Shown piece by piece: positions 5,461 through 10,188 of a stretch of 59,588 nucleotides of DNA. How positions within the stretch are numbered: the stretch's first letter is position 1; each line of letters starts with the position of its first letter. The position numbers and the translations under genes were made by a program. The notes below the pieces were generated by a model. The model was given only the letters and a program-made list of their open reading frames with translations. It was not told the DNA's origin and searched no databases. The stretch spans positions 69,833 through 129,420 of the forward strand of contig CAZIPM010000001.1 in NCBI GenBank assembly GCA_964541395.1, read 5' to 3'. Source of the stretch: an uncultured Gammaproteobacteria bacterium (GTDB lineage: Bacteria; Patescibacteriota; Microgenomatia; UBA8517).

Positions 5461-6189
5461 ATGAATTTAAAAAATAAAATAGCTATTGTTACCGGTGGTA
5501 GTAGTGGAATTGGACAAGCTATTTGTATTGCTTTGGCAAAAGAAGGATGCAAAGTTGTATTTACATATAATTCAAATGAAAAAGGTGCCAATGAAACTTT
5601 AAAAGAATTAGGAGAGAAGGGTATTAAATTTAATGTTGATTCGAGAAAGGAAGAAGACATTAAAAAATTGTTTGAATTTGTTGCAAAAGAACTCAAACAT
5701 CTTGATATTTTAGTAAATAATGCCGGCAAAACATTAATGGGAGATAATTTAGATATAAAACTTTGGAGAGAAGTTTTTGATATAACTTTATTCCCAATTA
5801 TTATAACAACATCAGAAGCAATTAAACTAATGAATGGTATGGGAAAAATCTTGAACATATCTTCAATTTTTGGTGATGATCATGCTAATAATAAAAAATT
5901 TGCTCCATTTGGCGCAGCAAAAGCTGCAATGAATAACTTTACAAGTACTATGGCTAAAAATTTGGCTCCAGGAATTCTTGTGAATGCTATCATACCAGGA
6001 TATGTACTGACCCCATTATGGGGAAATATGAGTGAGGAAGATATTAAATCAAATTCGTCGGAACAGTTAATTAACAGATTTATAAAACCTGAAGAAATTG
6101 CAGAAATGAGTCTAGCTATCATTAAAAATGATGCGATGACTGGCGAAGTGGTTGTAGTTGATGGGGGTCTGTCGTTAAAAACTATATGA
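5461..6189 (+). CDS. SDR family oxidoreductase (FabG-like) with Phe at the catalytic Tyr position
   Basis: TGGSSGIG, LDILVNNAG, NISS, FGAAK (in place of YxxxK), VNAIIPG, TGEVVVVDGG. Confidence 0.85.
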   Translation: MNLKNKIAIVTGGSSGIGQAICIALAKEGCKVVFTYNSNEKGANETLKELGEKGIKFNVDSRKEEDIKKLFEFVAKELKHLDILVNNAGKTLMGDNLDIKLWREVFDITLFPIIITTSEAIKLMNGMGKILNISSIFGDDHANNKKFAPFGAAKAAMNNFTSTMAKNLAPGILVNAIIPGYVLTPLWGNMSEEDIKSNSSEQLINRFIKPEEIAEMSLAIIKNDAMTGEVVVVDGGLSLKTI

Positions 6190-6644
6190 AATTAAATAAT
6201 AAAGACAAAAAAGAAATATTGGAATATTTAGGAAAACATAAATTAATGTCTGTGGGGACATATTACCGTTTACCTTGGGCAGCAAATGTCTATTATTTGT
6301 ACGATGATAATTTTAATTTCTATTTTGTAAGCGGTCCCAATAGGCTACACTGCCAGAATATTGTAAAGAATCCAAAAGTATCTATCACAATAGCCAATAG
6401 TCAGCAGGACCCTAAAGGTAAAAAAGTTGGATTCCAAGCAAGAGGGTTCGCCAAAAAAGTGTCTTCTGTTTCTGAGTTGAAAGAGATAATCAAATCCTGG
6501 AACAAAAGGGGATTTGTTCCTGTTACTTATTCAGTTTTTAAAAAAGCATGGAAATCAAGATTTTATAAAATTAAAGTGACTGACCTTCAGATGTTTGATG
6601 AGAATCAGTCAAAAGAATTAGAAACGAGAAATTGGAAGGTATGA
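6186..6644 (+). CDS. Pyridoxamine 5'-phosphate oxidase-like (flavin split-barrel, YhbP-like) protein
   Basis: MSVGT..PWAANVYY, FYFVS...HCQNI.KNPKVSITI, GFQARG. Confidence 0.75.
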   Translation: MKLNNKDKKEILEYLGKHKLMSVGTYYRLPWAANVYYLYDDNFNFYFVSGPNRLHCQNIVKNPKVSITIANSQQDPKGKKVGFQARGFAKKVSSVSELKEIIKSWNKRGFVPVTYSVFKKAWKSRFYKIKVTDLQMFDENQSKELETRNWKV

Positions 6645-7390
6645 ATTTACAAAACAAAGTTGTTGTGGTTACCGGTGCAACAGGTGGAGTTGGCAGGGAG
6701 TTGGTTAAAAAACTGGATTTATTTGGTGCAGAACTGATATTAATATCAAAAACAGAGAGTGAACTTCAGAACTTAGTTAAAAGTTTAAAAGGCAGAAAAC
6801 ATAAATTTTATGTTTGTGATTTTGCAGATCAGCAAAAAACAATTAAGGTTGCACAAAAAATAAATAAGGATATTGAAAAAATTGACATTTTAATTAACGG
6901 AGCTGGAATAGGAATTTACAAACCAATTGATGAACTGACTGTAGATGAATGGAATAAGTCTTTGGAAATTATGGTTTCGGCTCCATTTATATTTATTAAG
7001 TACTTACTTGAAAATTTAATGAAGTCTAGTGATTCTCTCGTTTTAAATATCGGCTCAGGAGCAGGAGTAATACCTATGGCAGGAAGAAGCGCCTATTGTG
7101 CCTCTAAATTTGCCCTAAGAGGATTTACATTAAGTCTTTCCGAAGAATATAAAAGAATAGGTAATCCGAAATTCTGTCTGATAACTTTAGGTAGTACATT
7201 AACAAGTTTTGGTCCAATGAATTTTGGTGATAAAAAGGAGGAAATGGAAAAAGGTAAGGCTTATTTTACACCGAATTGGGTAACGCAAAAACTTACAGAA
7301 ATTATTAAAGATGACAAAAGAGAAATTGAATACACACTATACCCCGGAGAATATGGATTAGGTGAATGGAAAAAACCAGAACCTATTTAA
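6641..7390 (+). CDS. SDR family oxidoreductase
   Basis: TGATGGVG, IDILINGAG, NIGS, YCASK; ATG at 6641 overlaps the upstream TGA (ATGA). Confidence 0.85.
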   Translation: MNLQNKVVVVTGATGGVGRELVKKLDLFGAELILISKTESELQNLVKSLKGRKHKFYVCDFADQQKTIKVAQKINKDIEKIDILINGAGIGIYKPIDELTVDEWNKSLEIMVSAPFIFIKYLLENLMKSSDSLVLNIGSGAGVIPMAGRSAYCASKFALRGFTLSLSEEYKRIGNPKFCLITLGSTLTSFGPMNFGDKKEEMEKGKAYFTPNWVTQKLTEIIKDDKREIEYTLYPGEYGLGEWKKPEPI

Positions 7391-8030
7391 ATAATTTTGA
7401 TGTAAATTTAGAAGACTCTCTAAATAACAAATTTTTAATAACATCTATACTAATCTGATCATTAAGAAATCTAATACCATAATCTTCGATATCGTCCCAA
7501 TAGGTTAGTTGTTCAATAAATAGCTTTTCGGAAAAGCCATTTTTAAATTTCTGTTTTGATATAGATATTATTTCTTCTAGCTTTAAATATTTATTTTTAA
7601 TTAAAAAATATATATCTACATAATCTCGCCATTTAGGCCGTCTACCAATTGTAAATGCTTTATTTGCTGCAATATCACGAATATCCATCAAATCGATATA
7701 CTCTGTGTGTATGGGTTTATATAATGATTTGTAGTCATCTTTAAAAAGGGTTATATATACAGATGTAGGTGTTGTCATATTCAACTGATCTTCAGTGTCA
7801 AGATATCTATTTGAAGATTTGCCAAACACTTTTCTTAGTTTCAACCACAATGAACGGTTTAGTTTACGGAAAGTAAATATATCAAAATCGTACGAAACTC
7901 GATGTCCAATTTGTAACGCCAAAGCAGTTCCACCGCCCAAGACCCCAAGCTTTTTAAAGTTCTTAAGCTTATGAAAGACTTCTAGTTTTTCTTTATCTAA
8001 TGATTCTAGGAAAAGTTTTGACATAGTCAT
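7383..8030 (-). CDS. AbiEii/AbiGii-family nucleotidyltransferase (type IV TA toxin-like)
   Basis: LGGGTALALQIGHRVSYDFDIF, DIAANKA, R..WRDYVDIY. Confidence 0.85.
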   Translation of the reverse strand: MTMSKLFLESLDKEKLEVFHKLKNFKKLGVLGGGTALALQIGHRVSYDFDIFTFRKLNRSLWLKLRKVFGKSSNRYLDTEDQLNMTTPTSVYITLFKDDYKSLYKPIHTEYIDLMDIRDIAANKAFTIGRRPKWRDYVDIYFLIKNKYLKLEEIISISKQKFKNGFSEKLFIEQLTYWDDIEDYGIRFLNDQISIDVIKNLLFRESSKFTSKLFK

Positions 8031-8298
8031 GTTTGTTTATCGACGAATTCGGGATATTTAATAAAACTTTCTGGACAAAATTAAACGACCGTTCAGAATA
8101 ATCCTTTTCAGGGTGTTTTATAAACACTTCCCTTATTTGATTCTTATCATAGTTTTGTGTAAGCCAAGTCAAATGTTCCCATCCCCCATATGCCAAAATT
8201 TGATGAATAATATAGCTCTTATCTTTTTTTAGATCGATTTCGTTTATGTCTCTACTCCACAATATACCTCTGAGGTTTTTTGGTAGTTTACTTGGCAT
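7993..8298 (-). CDS. Small cognate partner of the AbiEii gene (DUF6922-like, putative antitoxin)
   Basis: LWS.D...IDL.KDK.YIIHQILAYG pattern; lies upstream of and overlaps the nucleotidyltransferase gene. Confidence 0.7.
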   Translation of the reverse strand: MPSKLPKNLRGILWSRDINEIDLKKDKSYIIHQILAYGGWEHLTWLTQNYDKNQIREVFIKHPEKDYSERSFNFVQKVLLNIPNSSINKHDYVKTFPRIIR

Positions 8299-8344: not shown

Positions 8345-9880
8345 ATGAAAAGTTATTATAAATGGTTCTTTGCTATATTAATAATTCTCGGATTTGCTGA
8401 TTCGGTTTTTCTAACCTATGAACACTACGCATTAACTTCCTACGGATGTCCAATTAGTCCCTGGATAAACTGTTTGGCTGTAACCACTTCAAAATATTCC
8501 GAAATTTGGGGGGTTCCACTCTCACTTTTGGGAAGTCTTTACTATGCAGTATTGTTTTTCTTTTTGATGAAAAGTAAGGAAAAGATGTTCAGACATTTCT
8601 TTATCTTAGTTTCTTCTTTTGGAGTTTTATTTTCGCTATACCTTATTTACATCCAAATGTTTGCTATCGGACTATTTTGTTTATATTGTTTAGCATCTGC
8701 ACTAATTTCATTTTTAATCTTTATTTACACCTGGGTATTTTTCAGAAACGAATGGGATACTTTGGTAGTGGATACTATTGGGTACAAGTATAAATATATT
8801 TTAAAACCAATACTTTTTCTAATTGACGCGGAAGTAGTACATGAAAATATGGTAAAAATGGGAGAAAAAATCATTAATAGTAATTTTATTAAGAATATAT
8901 TTAAATTAGTTTTTGTTAAAAAATATAGTAATCTTAAACAAAAAATACAGGGATTAAGTTTTAAAACTCCAATTGGTCTTGCTGCTGGATTCGATTATGA
9001 AGCAAGACTTACCCAGGCATTACCATATATAGGTTTTGGCTTTCAAACAGTTGGAACAATAACTAATTCGCCATATATAGGAAACCCTAAACCAATGCTA
9101 GGAAGACTTCCTAAATCTAAATCTCTTCTGGTAAATAAAGGATTTAAAAATTTAGGTATTAAAGAAACACTACAAAGATTAAAAGGTAAAAAGTTTTTAT
9201 ACCCGGTCGGAGTTTCAATAGGAAGAACCAACTCCGTTGATCTTGATACTGTTGAAAAATCAATTGATGATATCATTTCGGCATTTAAATATGCGAAAAA
9301 CTCTAAGGTAAGTAATTCCTTTTTTGAACTTAACATAAGTTGCCCAAATATTATTCACGATGCAGGAATCAATTTTTATGATGTAAAGAATTTGGAAAAG
9401 CTATTGTTTCAGTTAGATTTATTAAAAATCAGAAGGCCTGTTTTTATAAAAATGCCGATAGACCAAGGAGATAGTCAGACACTCTCCATGTTAAAAGTAA
9501 TTGCTAAACATAGAGTTGCAGGAGTTATTTTTGGAAATTTACAGACTGATAAAAAACACAAGTTGTTGGTTAAAGATGAGATTAAGAAATTCAAAATGGG
9601 TAAATATTCGGGTAAACCTACATTTGAGGATTCCAATAGGTTAATAAAATTAGCTTATAAAAACTTTAAGGACAGATTTATAATTATTGGTACAGGTGGG
9701 GTCTTTAATGCAGATGATGCGTGGGTGAAGTTTGCAAACGGTGCAACACTGGTTCAGCTTATAACTGGAATGATTTTTGAAGGTCCTCAGCTTATAGCTC
9801 AGATAAACAGGGATTTATCAGTTAGATTGAAAAAAGAAGGATTTAAAAATATTGGCCAGATGATAGGTTCTAAAGTTTGA
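8345..9880 (+). CDS. pyrD: Fusion: VKOR family membrane thiol:quinone oxidoreductase (aa 1-135) + dihydroorotate dehydrogenase-like FMN enzyme (aa ~145-511)
   Basis: VKOR: C35-x7-C43, V..SKYS...GVP.S.LG, C112LYC115, four TM. DHODH: KPILFLIDAEVVHE, PIGLAAGFD, GTIT....GNPKP, NISCPN, SGKP, IIGTGGV, GATLVQLITG..FEGP. One uninterrupted ORF. Confidence 0.85.
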   Translation: MKSYYKWFFAILIILGFADSVFLTYEHYALTSYGCPISPWINCLAVTTSKYSEIWGVPLSLLGSLYYAVLFFFLMKSKEKMFRHFFILVSSFGVLFSLYLIYIQMFAIGLFCLYCLASALISFLIFIYTWVFFRNEWDTLVVDTIGYKYKYILKPILFLIDAEVVHENMVKMGEKIINSNFIKNIFKLVFVKKYSNLKQKIQGLSFKTPIGLAAGFDYEARLTQALPYIGFGFQTVGTITNSPYIGNPKPMLGRLPKSKSLLVNKGFKNLGIKETLQRLKGKKFLYPVGVSIGRTNSVDLDTVEKSIDDIISAFKYAKNSKVSNSFFELNISCPNIIHDAGINFYDVKNLEKLLFQLDLLKIRRPVFIKMPIDQGDSQTLSMLKVIAKHRVAGVIFGNLQTDKKHKLLVKDEIKKFKMGKYSGKPTFEDSNRLIKLAYKNFKDRFIIIGTGGVFNADDAWVKFANGATLVQLITGMIFEGPQLIAQINRDLSVRLKKEGFKNIGQMIGSKV

Positions 9881-10006
9881 TTATTTTTTCTTTTTTCTTT
9901 TGTCTCTCAGATCTAATTGATTGGCCACATAAATACCAATTACTAAAGCTAAAATTAATACCGCTACTGTCAAGTAAAAATATATTAAATTATCAGTATT
10001 TATCAT
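9881..10006 (-). CDS. 41-aa single-TM microprotein with basic tail (not in ORF track)
   Basis: MINTDNLIYFYLTVAVLILALVIGIYVANQLDLRDKRKKKK; its ATG overlaps the upstream stop (TAATG) and it fills the gap exactly. Confidence 0.65.
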   Translation of the reverse strand: MINTDNLIYFYLTVAVLILALVIGIYVANQLDLRDKRKKKK

Positions 10007-10188
10007 TATTTTTTTATCAAATATATACTTAATAACCAAGTTACACTTGATGATAGTATACCTAATACTAGCAACAAAAGACTGAACCTGTCAATAAAAA
10101 ATTGTAAAACAAAAGTAGCAAATAAAACTTGGGCAATATCTGAAAGAATATCTGAGATTTTATGCAGTCTTTCCTTAGTTATACGCAT
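10006..10188 (-). CDS. 60-aa two-TM small membrane protein
   Basis: Two hydrophobic segments; TGaTAATAT lies 7 nt upstream of ATG; coupled to the 41-aa ORF. Confidence 0.65.
   Translation of the reverse strand: MRITKERLHKISDILSDIAQVLFATFVLQFFIDRFSLLLLVLGILSSSVTWLLSIYLIKK

What the first reader, a model, noticed from the sequence alone, without database searches (positions are those of the whole stretch)
8345..9880. VKOR-dihydroorotate dehydrogenase fusion: a possible self-contained quinone loop for disulfide chemistry
Seen: one 511-aa ORF joins a complete VKOR domain (loop C35/C43, helix C112xxC115, four TM) to a PyrD-like FMN barrel that retains the N-terminal helical quinone-tunnel segment. 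No other pyr gene is nearby. Known: bacterial VKOR re-oxidises DsbA-type proteins and reduces quinone, and its usual fusion partners are thioredoxin-like domains; class 2 DHODH also reduces quinone. Since both normally make quinol, a functional coupling needs one half to run backwards. Inference A: the flavin domain re-oxidises quinol with a soluble acceptor (for example fumarate, as Cys-type class 1A DHODHs do), allowing disulfide formation without a respiratory chain, which would suit a CPR-type organism. Inference B: dihydroorotate electrons are exported through VKOR to extracytoplasmic disulfides. I am not aware of a characterised example.
Basis: partly seen in the sequence, partly recalled or inferred. 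Interest (0 to 1): 0.85.

Follow-up and report, generated by a model that had tools for sequence, protein, structure and literature searches.

The report
VKOR fused to remodelled DHODH-like flavoenzyme
An ultra-small groundwater bacterium with no respiratory chain joins the membrane enzyme that makes protein disulfide bonds to a remodelled copy of a pyrimidine flavoenzyme that seems to have left pyrimidine synthesis, and across its relatives that copy almost always occurs with a disulfide-forming enzyme.

Summary
ORF 8345..9880 (511 aa) is one uninterrupted gene: a complete VKOR domain joined to a class-2-type DHODH domain. Independent assemblies bridge the junction, and 119 of the 120 best homologues have the same architecture.

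This scan has already reported the same fusion on other genomes. New here:

- **A distinct subfamily.** The flavin half has Cys as catalytic base and three orotate-contact positions replaced. Canonical PyrD genes of the same phylum sit in pyrE-pyrF operons.
- **No pyrimidine pathway.** No pyrC, pyrE, pyrF, MenA/UbiA, NDH-1, NDH-2, cytochrome bd or haem-copper oxidase was found (97.6% complete genome).
- **Co-occurrence.** In 401 genomes of the phylum, 47 of 52 with a stand-alone gene of this subfamily also carry VKOR or DsbB, against 147 of 341 others.
- **Gene neighbours.** The gene sits directly beside dsbB, or in dsbB-dsbA or dsbA-vkor clusters, in separate lineages.

Best reading (about 0.45): VKOR oxidises DsbA-type proteins outside the cell, and the flavin domain passes the quinol electrons to an unknown cytoplasmic acceptor. 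The direction of flow is inferred. Seven literature searches found no description.

The parts
8345..9880 (+). Whole gene: VKOR::DHODH-like fusion, 511 aa plus stop
8345..8743 (+). VKOR domain (aa 1-133): four transmembrane helices, N- and C-termini cytoplasmic by the positive-inside rule
   Evidence: Pfam PF07884, 95.3 bits; helices 3-29, 59-75, 80-108 and 113-132 in the AF2 model; alignment to Synechococcus VKOR 4nv2. The topology is my reading of the K/R distribution in the sequence.
8447..8473 (+). Outward loop cysteine pair C35 ... C43
   Evidence: Invariant in 127 of 127 fused homologues; C43 aligns with the loop Cys of 4nv2
8678..8689 (+). C112-L-Y-C115 redox motif at the outer end of TM4
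   Evidence: Invariant in 127 of 127; aligns with the CxxC of 4nv2/3kp9
8744..8914 (+). Linker helix continuous with TM4, plus the class-2-type N-terminal helices (aa 134-190) that form the quinone tunnel in class 2 DHODH. Includes H166, the equivalent of E. coli His19.
   Evidence: Helices 134-157, 162-176 and 180-190; NCBIfam alignments start at aa 148-152; H166 in 127 of 127 and R254 (E. coli Arg102) in 127 of 127
8933..9826 (+). FMN (beta/alpha)8 barrel, DHO_dh family (aa 197-494)
   Evidence: Pfam PF01180, 157.7 bits; Foldseek TM 0.93 (target-normalised) to 6b8s and 8ofw
8996..8998 (+). Y218 at the position of E. coli PyrD Lys66
   Evidence: Tyr in 126 of 127 fused homologues; Lys in 77 of 100 stand-alone homologues
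9131..9133 (+). V263 at the position of E. coli PyrD Asn111
   Evidence: Val in 127 of 127 fused; ungapped against canonical sequences of the same phylum
9332..9349 (+). N-I-S-C-P-N active-site motif; C333 at the catalytic-base position (Ser175 in E. coli)
   Evidence: Cys in 127 of 127 fused; HMMER alignment to 6b8s
9539..9541 (+). L399 at the position of E. coli PyrD Thr247
   Evidence: Leu in 127 of 127 fused
5461..7390 (+). Upstream cluster SDR (5461-6189), PNPOx-like flavoprotein (6186-6644), SDR (6632-7390). A possibly associated gene set; membership in the system is not shown.
   Evidence: Pfam. The same SDR-PNPOx-SDR set lies directly upstream of the fused gene in L205 and L224. An SDR is adjacent on the same strand in 8 of 49 fused metagenome loci and PNPOx-like lies within 1 kb in 7 of 49. 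51% and 33% identity to the neighbours in a Woesebacteria record.
7383..8298 (-). AbiEii-type nucleotidyltransferase toxin plus DUF6922 gene pair on the opposite strand, lying between that cluster and the fused gene. Not part of the system.
   Evidence: Pfam; absent between SDR and the fused gene in L205 and L224

Best explanation
The gene encodes a two-module membrane redox enzyme of the oxidative protein-folding pathway. The N-terminal VKOR module has both cysteine pairs facing outward. It re-oxidises the cell's membrane-anchored DsbA-type proteins and passes the two electrons to a membrane quinone, which is probably scavenged because the genome shows no quinone prenyltransferase. The C-terminal module hangs from the cytoplasmic end of TM4. 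It derives from class 2 (quinone-dependent) DHODH but no longer works in pyrimidine synthesis. It keeps the quinone-tunnel helices and the FMN site, has Cys instead of Ser as proton donor/acceptor, and has a remodelled substrate pocket. I propose that it runs 'backwards' compared with PyrD: quinol reduces FMN, and FMNH2 together with Cys333 reduces an unidentified small cytoplasmic acceptor. The flavin domain would then serve as the electron outlet that a respiratory chain provides for DsbB or VKOR in other bacteria. Shown: the architecture, its conservation, the remodelled pocket, the absence of pyr and respiratory genes, and the statistical and physical association of this DHODH-like subfamily with VKOR or DsbB. 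Inferred: the use of quinone, the direction of flow and the acceptor.
For: (1) The VKOR half looks functional. All four Cys are invariant in 127 of 127. It is the only VKOR in the genome and no DsbB was found. Two DsbA-like proteins with an N-terminal anchor and a CPFC motif are present. (2) The flavin half is not a pyrimidine enzyme here. No OMPdecase, pyrE or pyrC was found by HMM. None of 7 PyrE-like and 6 OMPdecase proteins taken from pyr operons of the same phylum has a tblastn hit in the genome, while 62 of 206 other ORFs from those loci do. (3) Pocket changes in the fused family: Lys66->Tyr in 126/127, Asn111->Val in 127/127, Ser175->Cys in 127/127 and Thr247->Leu in 127/127. His19, Arg102, Asn172, Asn177, Lys217 and Asn246 are kept in 127/127. 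(4) Paralogy. Loci with the canonical pocket lie next to PyrE-like and OMPdecase genes. Of 23 genomes with the remodelled type plus an OMPdecase hit, 16 have a second DHO_dh gene, including both fused genomes of that kind. OMPdecase is found in only 2 of 8 fused and 1 of 11 stand-alone Tyr-type genomes. (5) Link to disulfide formation. VKOR or DsbB occurs in 47 of 52 genomes with a stand-alone remodelled gene against 147 of 341 others (odds ratio 12.4). Put the other way, the remodelled type, fused forms included, occurs in 55 of 202 genomes with VKOR or DsbB against 5 of 199 without. (6) Physical links in unfused lineages. In G179 the order is DHODH-like, DsbB, DsbA-like with overlapping ends. 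In G181 dsbB lies directly upstream. In G031 the gene is divergent from a DsbA-like-VKOR pair. In a MAG labelled Nanoarchaeota a VKOR gene overlaps the 3' end. DsbB and VKOR are different Pfam families with the same job, so the association is with the function. (7) No other quinone-reactive enzyme was found in this genome: no cytochrome bd, COX1 (54) or NDH-1 antiporter subunit; the single Pyr_redox_2/FAD_binding_2 protein is thioredoxin reductase; the only UbiA-family gene is of the decaprenyl-phosphate phosphoribosyltransferase type. With only two quinone-reactive modules, turnover needs one to oxidise what the other reduces. (8) All characterised bacterial VKOR and DsbB enzymes work as thiol oxidases that reduce quinone (established knowledge), which favours quinol oxidation by the flavin half.
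Against: No result here shows electron transfer, quinone binding or the direction of flow. Quinol (about -74 mV for menaquinone, recalled) reducing an FMN of DHODH type is uphill unless a high-potential acceptor pulls the reaction, and no acceptor is identified. 147 of 341 other genomes have VKOR or DsbB without this enzyme, including the five same-family relatives searched, which have only a stand-alone VKOR. The outlet is therefore not generally required. 5 of 52 stand-alone genomes show neither VKOR nor DsbB. 7 of 23 genomes with the remodelled type plus an OMPdecase hit have no second DHO_dh gene, so the Lys-keeping form might still act as a DHODH in some lineages. The co-occurrence counts are not corrected for relatedness. 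Co-occurrence could also reflect a shared need for membrane quinone. Most stand-alone genes are not next to vkor or dsbB. The residue roles are recalled from E. coli, human and L. lactis structures, not measured on this protein.
Confidence: 0.45

Rival explanations
1. Reverse polarity. The flavin domain oxidises an unknown cytoplasmic substrate and reduces quinone, and the VKOR module uses the quinol to deliver reducing equivalents to extracytoplasmic thiol-disulfide proteins. This would be a DsbD/CcdA-like reductive route.
For: The asymmetry of co-occurrence fits equally well if VKOR or DsbB is the only available quinol oxidiser: the remodelled enzyme is rarely found without VKOR/DsbB (5 of 60), while VKOR/DsbB is often found without it. 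This is the native direction of the class 2 scaffold. No DsbD_TM/CcdA gene was found in the genome, so no other reductive route to the outside is visible. Two DsbA-like proteins exist, and one could be a reductase or isomerase.
Against: All characterised bacterial VKOR and DsbB enzymes act as oxidases (established knowledge). Quinol reducing a DsbA-type disulfide is unfavourable with ubiquinone and about neutral with menaquinone (recalled potentials). The fused protein is the only VKOR/DsbB in the genome, so the oxidative step would then have no catalyst. The dsbB-dsbA operon context in G179 is the classical oxidative pair.
Confidence: 0.2
2. No coupling. Both halves reduce the same scavenged quinone independently and VKOR also serves as a membrane anchor. 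The quinol is removed outside the protein, by O2, by lipid radicals (an antioxidant quinol pool) or by the host.
For: Both domains would then run in their textbook direction. Co-occurrence with VKOR/DsbB may only mark lineages that have membrane quinone. Eukaryotic class 2 DHODH also carries an N-terminal transmembrane anchor (established knowledge). Neighbours of the fused gene differ between subclades, so no fixed pathway is evident.
Against: Stand-alone members have only about 8 residues before the tunnel helices (P0127 aligns query aa 145 with its residue 9), so they need no anchor, yet they still track VKOR/DsbB. The gene sits inside dsbB-dsbA or dsbA-vkor clusters in separate lineages, which suggests more than a shared cofactor. 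No quinol oxidase was found in this genome. The runs that hold this DNA are recorded as groundwater and soil metagenomes; that such groundwater is often anoxic is general knowledge, not a result.
Confidence: 0.2
3. It is an ordinary PyrD for pyrimidine synthesis that happens to be fused to VKOR.
For: The protein passes TIGR01036 (216.6 bits, cut-off 200). Databases name homologues 'dihydroorotate dehydrogenase (quinone)'. Cys-base enzymes with a canonical pocket sit in pyr operons in this phylum (L093, L094, L096), so Cys alone does not exclude DHODH activity.
Against: No pyrC, pyrE or pyrF in a 97.6%-complete genome. Three orotate-contact positions are replaced in 126-127 of 127. A separate canonical DHO_dh gene exists in both fused genomes that have an OMPdecase hit. 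The protein scores below the cut-off of its best equivalog models (273.6 against 448; 261.5 against 267).
Confidence: 0.05

Closest known systems
Bacterial VKOR homologues, in particular the Synechococcus VKOR-thioredoxin fusion (PDB 3KP9, 4NV2, 4NV5, 4NV6)
   Same: Four-helix VKOR core, outward loop Cys pair and CxxC at TM4; sequence alignment at E 5.6e-5 with the CxxC in register. Both are fusions that put a redox partner on the same polypeptide.
   Different: In Synechococcus a fifth helix carries a thioredoxin-like electron donor to the outside. Here there is no fifth helix, and the fused partner is a cytoplasmic flavoenzyme on the quinone side of the reaction. A VKOR-Trx fusion of the classical kind also exists in this phylum (L095).
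E. coli DsbB-DsbA with ubiquinone or menaquinone and the terminal oxidases or anaerobic reductases (established pathway)
   Same: The same logic is proposed: periplasmic thiols, then a membrane thiol oxidase, then quinone, then a quinol-oxidising enzyme. DsbB genes lie directly beside the DHODH-like gene in G179 and G181.
   Different: No respiratory quinol oxidase or reductase was found here. The proposed outlet is a DHODH-derived flavoenzyme, and in this gene it is covalently fused.
Class 2 (quinone-dependent) DHODH: E. coli PyrD 1F76, H. pylori 6B8S, M. tuberculosis 8OFW, human 1D3G
   Same: Fold (TM 0.93 to 6b8s and 8ofw), the N-terminal helical pair, and the equivalents of His19, Arg102, Asn172, Asn177, Lys217 and Asn246.
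   Different: Cys instead of the Ser base; Lys66->Tyr, Asn111->Val, Thr247->Leu and Tyr318->Ile; no pyr gene context; N-terminal VKOR.
Class 1A DHODH (L. lactis DHODA, trypanosomatid enzymes; fumarate as oxidant)
   Same: A Cys proton donor in an N-x-S-C-P-N motif, and a precedent for a DHODH barrel reducing a C=C acceptor at the orotate site (established knowledge).
   Different: Much weaker similarity (TIGR01037 68 bits against cut-off 270; PDB E about 1e-10 to 1e-11). Class 1A enzymes are soluble, without tunnel helices, and keep the Lys/Asn pocket that is lost here.

Membership tests
VKOR (Pfam PF07884) | Profile match above the curated cut-off | tested here: met
   95.3 bits against 27.5, aa 7-130, full profile 1-134
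VKOR (Pfam PF07884) | Four-helix transmembrane core | tested here: met
   Model helices 3-29, 59-75, 80-108 and 113-132, block pLDDT 83-97. This is a model, not a structure.
VKOR (Pfam PF07884) | Loop cysteine pair plus CxxC at the last core helix | tested here: met
   C35, C43, C112 and C115 invariant in 127/127; CxxC in register with 4nv2
VKOR (Pfam PF07884) | Thiol-dependent quinone reduction | not testable with these tools
   Needs biochemistry
Class 2 quinone-dependent DHODH (TIGR01036 / PRK05286) | Family HMM above cut-off | tested here: inconclusive
   TIGR01036 216.6 against 200 passes; NF003652 261.5 against 267 and NF003651 273.6 against 448 fail
Class 2 quinone-dependent DHODH (TIGR01036 / PRK05286) | N-terminal helical domain with the quinone-site His and Arg | tested here: met
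   Helices 134-190; H166 and R254 in 127/127. The roles of these residues are recalled.
Class 2 quinone-dependent DHODH (TIGR01036 / PRK05286) | Serine catalytic base | tested here: not met
   Cys333 in 127/127
Class 2 quinone-dependent DHODH (TIGR01036 / PRK05286) | Orotate-contact residues Lys66, Asn111, Thr247 (E. coli numbering; roles recalled) | tested here: not met
   Tyr in 126/127, Val in 127/127, Leu in 127/127; ungapped against canonical sequences of the phylum
Class 2 quinone-dependent DHODH (TIGR01036 / PRK05286) | Works within a de novo pyrimidine pathway | tested here: not met
   No pyrC, pyrE or pyrF in the genome
Class 2 quinone-dependent DHODH (TIGR01036 / PRK05286) | Dihydroorotate:quinone oxidoreductase activity | not testable with these tools
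   Needs an assay
Class 1A DHODH (fumarate-dependent) | Cys base | tested here: met
   NISCPN motif
Class 1A DHODH (fumarate-dependent) | Family profile, soluble form without N-terminal helices, Lys/Asn pocket | tested here: not met
   TIGR01037 68 against 270; tunnel helices present; pocket replaced
DsbB/VKOR-associated DHODH-like subfamily (defined in this report) | Signature [K/Y]-V-C-L at E. coli positions 66/111/175/247, separate from the canonical clade | tested here: met
   Y-V-C-L. The Tyr-type is one side of a branch with SH-aLRT 99, and the canonical type plus E. coli is one side of a branch with 99 (quick tree only).
DsbB/VKOR-associated DHODH-like subfamily (defined in this report) | Genome also encodes VKOR or DsbB | tested here: met
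   The fusion itself; in the sample 55 of 60 genomes with the subfamily

The most novel reading that the evidence does not exclude
Ultra-small, non-respiring prokaryotes (CPR bacteria, and possibly DPANN archaea if the MAG labels hold) have a previously unrecognised third component of oxidative protein folding. It is a flavoenzyme derived from class 2 DHODH that re-oxidises the quinol made by DsbB or VKOR and passes the electrons to a cytoplasmic acceptor, replacing the respiratory chain. In Microgenomates it is welded to VKOR as a self-contained transmembrane disulfide generator that may need only a few scavenged quinone molecules.
Probability: 0.4. Interest if true: 0.85.

Novelty: new variant of a known kind. 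Interest (0 to 1): 0.74.

Why it matters
DsbB and VKOR are usually explained as feeding electrons into a respiratory chain. CPR and DPANN genomes are reported to lack complete chains (PMC7507113, passages read) and quinone synthesis genes (PMC8407418, passage read). Even so, 202 of the 401 genomes sampled here carry VKOR or DsbB, and where those electrons go is an open question. This gene, with the stand-alone relatives and their dsbB, dsbA and vkor neighbours, gives a concrete and testable candidate for the missing outlet. It also shows a central pyrimidine enzyme recruited to a new redox job. Finally, current annotation ('quinone-dependent dihydroorotate dehydrogenase') probably mis-assigns pyrimidine capacity to many CPR genomes.

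Tried and rejected
- **Complex prediction** on the two halves (aa 1-135 against 136-511, alignment A1) gave no answer: score 0.22 against a mark of 0.32, controls not run. I do not use it either way.
- **The look-up of sequencing runs** listed no RNA holder, so there is nothing on expression.
- **The careful ML tree** did not finish in two 300-s runs. All tree statements rest on the quick IQ-TREE search with SH-aLRT only. Three class-1-like rows (L108-L110) were left out of the tree.
- **A universal operon partner** was not found. Clustering the ORFs around 72 DHODH-like loci gave a top neighbour cluster in only 10 of 72 loci, an ABC-type ATPase by its sequence (my reading; it was not scanned against a family library).
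- **Decayed VKOR remnants** upstream of the 11 stand-alone Tyr-type genes were not found. The only tblastn hits had E >= 0.006 and lay more than 1.5 kb from the gene.
- **Fumarate as acceptor.** There is no Lyase_1-family gene, and the only FAD_binding_2 hit is the N-terminal motif of thioredoxin reductase. The idea is not excluded, but nothing supports it. Class I fumarase was not searched.
- **Misassembly or one-off** is rejected.
- **Ordinary PyrD** is rejected as the main reading.
- **Literature.** Seven searches found no paper linking VKOR or DsbB with DHODH in bacteria. The VKOR+DHODH hits listed looked, from titles and abstract starts, to be mostly about ferroptosis, plus one on an inhibitor. 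'Candidate phyla radiation' plus 'dihydroorotate dehydrogenase' gave 0 papers.
- Searches failed because I gave a wrong frame for one item each. I re-sent them without that item.
Full report
**1. Observation**

One search lists a single ORF at 8345..9880 on the + strand (511 aa, ATG start). Pfam finds VKOR at aa 7-130 (95.3 bits) and DHO_dh at aa 197-494 (157.7 bits). NCBIfam aligns quinone-dependent (class 2) DHODH models from about aa 149 to 510, which includes the N-terminal helical segment; TIGR01036 scores 216.6 bits against a cut-off of 200. The best solved relatives are class 2 enzymes (6b8s, E 1.9e-38). The VKOR part alone aligns with Synechococcus VKOR (4nv2, E 5.6e-5) with the CxxC in register.

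An AlphaFold2 model built on 52 fused homologues has mean pLDDT 93.4 and pTM 0.90. It has four long helices (aa 3-29, 59-75, 80-108, 113-132), and the last runs straight into helix 134-157 of the flavin domain. The flavin half superposes on 6b8s and 8ofw with a target-normalised TM-score of 0.93. The lysine and arginine distribution in the sequence (K2, K6; 'MKSKEKMFRH' between helices 2 and 3; R/K after helix 4) puts both termini in the cytoplasm and both cysteine pairs outside. The flavin domain is therefore cytoplasmic. This topology is my reading.

**2. It is real and conserved**

- Of the 120 best hits in the 5.8-billion-protein collection, 119 carry both Pfam domains at 497-578 aa, down to 48% identity. 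Source names include Woesebacteria, Roizmanbacteria and Microgenomates.
- Contigs from two runs of studies other than the likely source bridge the domain junction (8732-8795) without a difference: X5 record 3 and X7 record 17.
- The scan has reported the same fusion on other genomes at least 15 times, so the fusion as such is not new to this project.
- Seven literature searches found no paper describing it.

**3. The flavin half is a distinct subfamily**

I aligned 127 fused and 100 stand-alone homologues with E. coli PyrD (locus L005). In the fused family:

| E. coli position | Residue in the fused family | Count |
|---|---|---|
| Ser175 (catalytic base) | Cys | 127/127 |
| Lys66 | Tyr | 126/127 |
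| Asn111 | Val | 127/127 |
| Thr247 | Leu | 127/127 |
| His19, Arg102, Asn172, Asn177, Lys217, Asn246 | kept | 127/127 each |

That Lys66, Asn111 and Thr247 contact orotate, and that His19 and Arg102 line the quinone site, is recalled from the E. coli, human and L. lactis structures and was not tested here. The replacements are ungapped against canonical sequences of the same phylum.

I searched 401 genomes of the phylum, fetched the regions around 72 matches and sorted the DHODH-like matches by these positions:

| Type | Pocket | Count |
|---|---|---|
| I | canonical, K-N-[S/C]-[T/S] | 10 loci |
| II | K-V-C-L, stand-alone | 41 genomes |
| III | Y-V-C-L | 8 fused and 11 stand-alone genomes |

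A quick ML tree puts type I together with E. coli PyrD on one side of a branch (SH-aLRT 99). All Tyr-type sequences fall on one side of another branch (99), with fused and unfused forms interleaved. The careful search did not finish.

**4. It is not the pyrimidine enzyme**

- The genome (997 kb, 22 contigs, 97.6% complete) has one VKOR and one strong DHO_dh match, both in this gene. A weak second DHO_dh hit on C12 (19.7 bits, below the cut-off) reads like a type-2 IPP isomerase (my reading, not scanned).
- No OMP decarboxylase, pyrE or pyrC was found. The only carbamoyltransferase is an ornithine carbamoyltransferase.
- A lineage-matched check agrees. None of 7 PyrE-like and 6 OMPdecase proteins taken from pyr operons of the phylum hits the genome, while 62 of 206 other ORFs from those loci do.
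- Several canonical and class-1-like loci lie beside PyrE-like, OMPdecase and PRPP-synthase-like genes: the PyrE-like cluster holds L093, L094, L096, L103, L104, L108 and L110, and the OMPdecase cluster holds L093, L094, L096, L108, L109 and L110. Type II and III loci do not.
- OMPdecase-family hits occur in 7 of 10 type I rows (the two genomes that also hold type II counted), 20 of 41 type II genomes, 1 of 11 stand-alone type III genomes and 2 of 8 fused genomes.
- Of the 23 type II/III genomes with such a hit, 16 hold a second DHO_dh gene above the Pfam cut-off, often within a few kb of the OMPdecase gene. These include both fused genomes of that kind. Seven hold none. A residual DHODH role for the Lys-keeping type II in some lineages therefore cannot be excluded.
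- Three type I enzymes in pyr operons have a Cys base (L093, L094, L096). Cys alone is not the mark of the new subfamily; the Val and Leu (and Tyr) replacements are.

**5. Link to disulfide-bond formation**

In the same 401 genomes VKOR occurs in 135 and DsbB in 84.

| Group | Genomes with VKOR or DsbB |
|---|---|
| Fused | 8 of 8 |
| Type III, stand-alone | 10 of 11 |
| Type II | 37 of 41 |
| All stand-alone type II/III | 47 of 52 |
| Remaining genomes | 147 of 341 |

The odds ratio for the last two rows is 12.4 (Fisher 3.5e-11). Put the other way, the subfamily occurs in 55 of 202 genomes with VKOR or DsbB and in 5 of 199 without. Relatives are not independent, so the p-value overstates the case, but the 52 genomes fall in about 30 family labels. 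One unpublished genome (G154) is in the 'remaining' group; without it that count is 146 of 340.

There are also physical links in unfused lineages:

- **G179 (L077):** DHODH-like, then DsbB (59.1 bits), then DsbA-like (90.9 bits), with overlapping ends.
- **G181 (L061):** dsbB directly upstream of a stand-alone Tyr-type gene.
- **G031 (L082):** the gene is divergent from a DsbA-like-VKOR pair.
- **L145 (a MAG labelled Nanoarchaeota):** a VKOR gene overlaps the 3' end.
- **G384 and G302:** looser links at 6 kb and 3.3 kb.
- **L219 (a metagenome locus):** a DsbA-like gene overlaps the start of a fused gene.

Most stand-alone genes have no such neighbour. DsbB and VKOR are different Pfam families that do the same job, so the association is with the function and not with one fold.

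**6. What else could touch quinone in this genome**

I found none of the following:

- cytochrome bd;
- haem-copper oxidase subunit I;
- NDH-1 antiporter-type subunit;
- DsbB;
- DsbD/CcdA.

The single Pyr_redox_2/FAD_binding_2 protein is thioredoxin reductase (375 bits against a cut-off of 343), so no NDH-2 or fumarate reductase was seen. The only UbiA-family gene is of the decaprenyl-phosphate phosphoribosyltransferase type (217.6 bits against 207), so no MenA or UbiA. Other men and ubi genes were not searched.

Two DsbA-like proteins with an N-terminal hydrophobic segment and a CPFC motif are present. Published work agrees in general: no complete electron transport chain in Patescibacteria or DPANN (PMC7507113, passages), and soil CPR genomes without quinone biosynthesis genes (PMC8407418, passage).

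**7. Mechanism**

Shown: the architecture, its conservation, the remodelled pocket, the missing pathways and the association with VKOR or DsbB.

Inferred: the quinone is scavenged, the two modules are the only quinone-reactive enzymes in the cell, and therefore one must oxidise what the other reduces. Characterised bacterial VKOR and DsbB enzymes are thiol oxidases, and this protein is the genome's only one. I therefore favour this route: DsbA-type thiols, VKOR cysteines, quinone, quinol, the tunnel of the flavin domain, FMN, and finally an unknown cytoplasmic acceptor protonated by Cys333 (confidence about 0.45).

The two quinone sites lie at opposite faces of the membrane. The quinone head group would have to flip, so a continuous site is not expected.

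The pocket positions that I recall binding orotate and fumarate in class 1A enzymes are replaced, and no Lyase_1 enzyme is present.

The rivals are:

| Rival | Confidence |
|---|---|
| Reverse flow from a cytoplasmic donor to the outside | 0.2 |
| Independent action on a shared quinone pool | 0.2 |
| Ordinary PyrD | 0.05 |

Points against my reading: the uphill step from quinol to FMN; 147 genomes with VKOR or DsbB but without this enzyme, including the five same-family relatives searched, which have only a stand-alone VKOR; five genomes with the enzyme but neither partner; and no experimental datum.

**8. Surroundings**

Upstream lie an SDR, a PNPOx-like flavoprotein and a second SDR (5461-7390, + strand). 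An AbiEii/DUF6922 pair follows on the opposite strand (7383-8298). A GT4 glycosyltransferase and a PIG-V-like membrane protein lie downstream.

In metagenome loci with 72-75% identical fused genes, the SDR-PNPOx-SDR set abuts the fused gene with nothing between them (L205, L224). The gene pair therefore looks like an insertion.

Across the 49 fused metagenome loci (44 groups at 90% identity), the neighbours are:

- an SDR adjacent on the same strand in 8 loci (8 of the 44 groups);
- a PNPOx-like gene within 1 kb in 7 loci (7 of the 44 groups);
- a NUDIX hydrolase overlapping the 3' end in 15 of the 44 groups;
- a DUF998 membrane protein next in 13 of the 44 groups;
- an amine-oxidase-family flavoprotein upstream in 9 of the 44 groups.

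The neighbours differ by subclade and none is universal. They are leads for the missing substrate or cofactor supply, not evidence.

**9. Verdict**

The finding is real, conserved and apparently undescribed in print, though it has been seen repeatedly in this scan. I class it as a new variant of known kinds, with interest 0.74.

Noticed in passing
window 7383-8298 (- strand): An AbiEii-family nucleotidyltransferase (215 aa) plus a DUF6922 protein (101 aa), a type IV toxin-antitoxin-like pair. It sits between the SDR-PNPOx-SDR cluster and the fused gene. Close relatives (L205, L224) have the cluster directly abutting the fused gene, so the pair looks like a recent insertion into a former operon.
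   Followed up: partly
window 5461-7390; L205, L206, L207, L209, L212, L213, L215, L224, L111, L040: An SDR lies next to the fused gene on the same strand, upstream in some loci and downstream in others, in 8 of 49 fused metagenome loci. A PNPOx-like flavoprotein (YhbP-like, weak) lies within 1 kb in 7 of 49. The window's copies are 51% and 33% identical to those beside a Woesebacteria fused gene. They may belong to the same pathway.
   Followed up: partly
L220-L222, L229, L233, L235, L237, L239, L242, L248-L250, L253 and others (metagenome loci): In 15 of 44 non-redundant fused loci a NUDIX hydrolase of about 150 aa overlaps the 3' end of the fused gene (median distance -6 nt). A DUF998 membrane protein follows in 13 of 44, and an amine-oxidase-family flavoprotein lies upstream in 9 of 44. 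In this genome NUDIX homologues are elsewhere (C14, C4) and the other two were not found by tblastn. A role in FMN supply from FAD is only my speculation.
   Followed up: partly
L120, L129, L135, L141, L145, L125 (genome contigs records): The remodelled DHODH-like gene (type II; Tyr-type in L120) occurs on contigs of MAGs labelled Pacearchaeota, Woesearchaeota, Nanoarchaeota and Methanosarcinales. The subfamily may therefore be shared between CPR bacteria and DPANN archaea. I did not check the labels.
   Followed up: no
L093, L094, L096 (G397, G293, G206): These are class-2-scaffold DHODH genes with the canonical orotate pocket but a Cys base. They sit in PRPP-synthase-like, PyrE-like, OMPdecase and PyrD clusters and look like genuine 'class 2 with Cys' pyrimidine enzymes, which blurs the textbook Ser/Cys class rule.
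   Followed up: partly
G003, G032, G059, G341, G354 (same GTDB family as the window's genome): All five same-family genomes in the phylum sample have a stand-alone VKOR of 146-158 aa (30-34% identical to the fused VKOR part in the four listed with an alignment) and no DHODH-like match with this query. The fused gene's nearest relatives are in other families. This suggests acquisition of the fused gene as a unit and replacement of the native VKOR.
   Followed up: no
G000 contig C16:19187-22931: Ornithine carbamoyltransferase, thioredoxin reductase and one of the two membrane-anchored DsbA-like genes lie in a row at the end of a contig.
   Followed up: no
L112, L116, L118, L122, L130, L140, L147 (genome contigs records): Contigs carrying the fused or stand-alone gene belong to MAGs titled 'uncultured Gammaproteobacteria' or 'Pseudomonadales'. 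Given the gene content, these titles look like mislabelled CPR bins.
   Followed up: no
L246, L247, L259 (metagenome loci): In these loci the VKOR part and the DHODH-like part of an otherwise full-length match lie in separate ORFs. This is either a frameshift in the assembly or a real split gene.
   Followed up: no
window 10006-10188 (- strand): A 60-aa ORF with two hydrophobic stretches lies just downstream of the fused gene, convergent with it. Its function is unknown and it was not examined.
   Followed up: no
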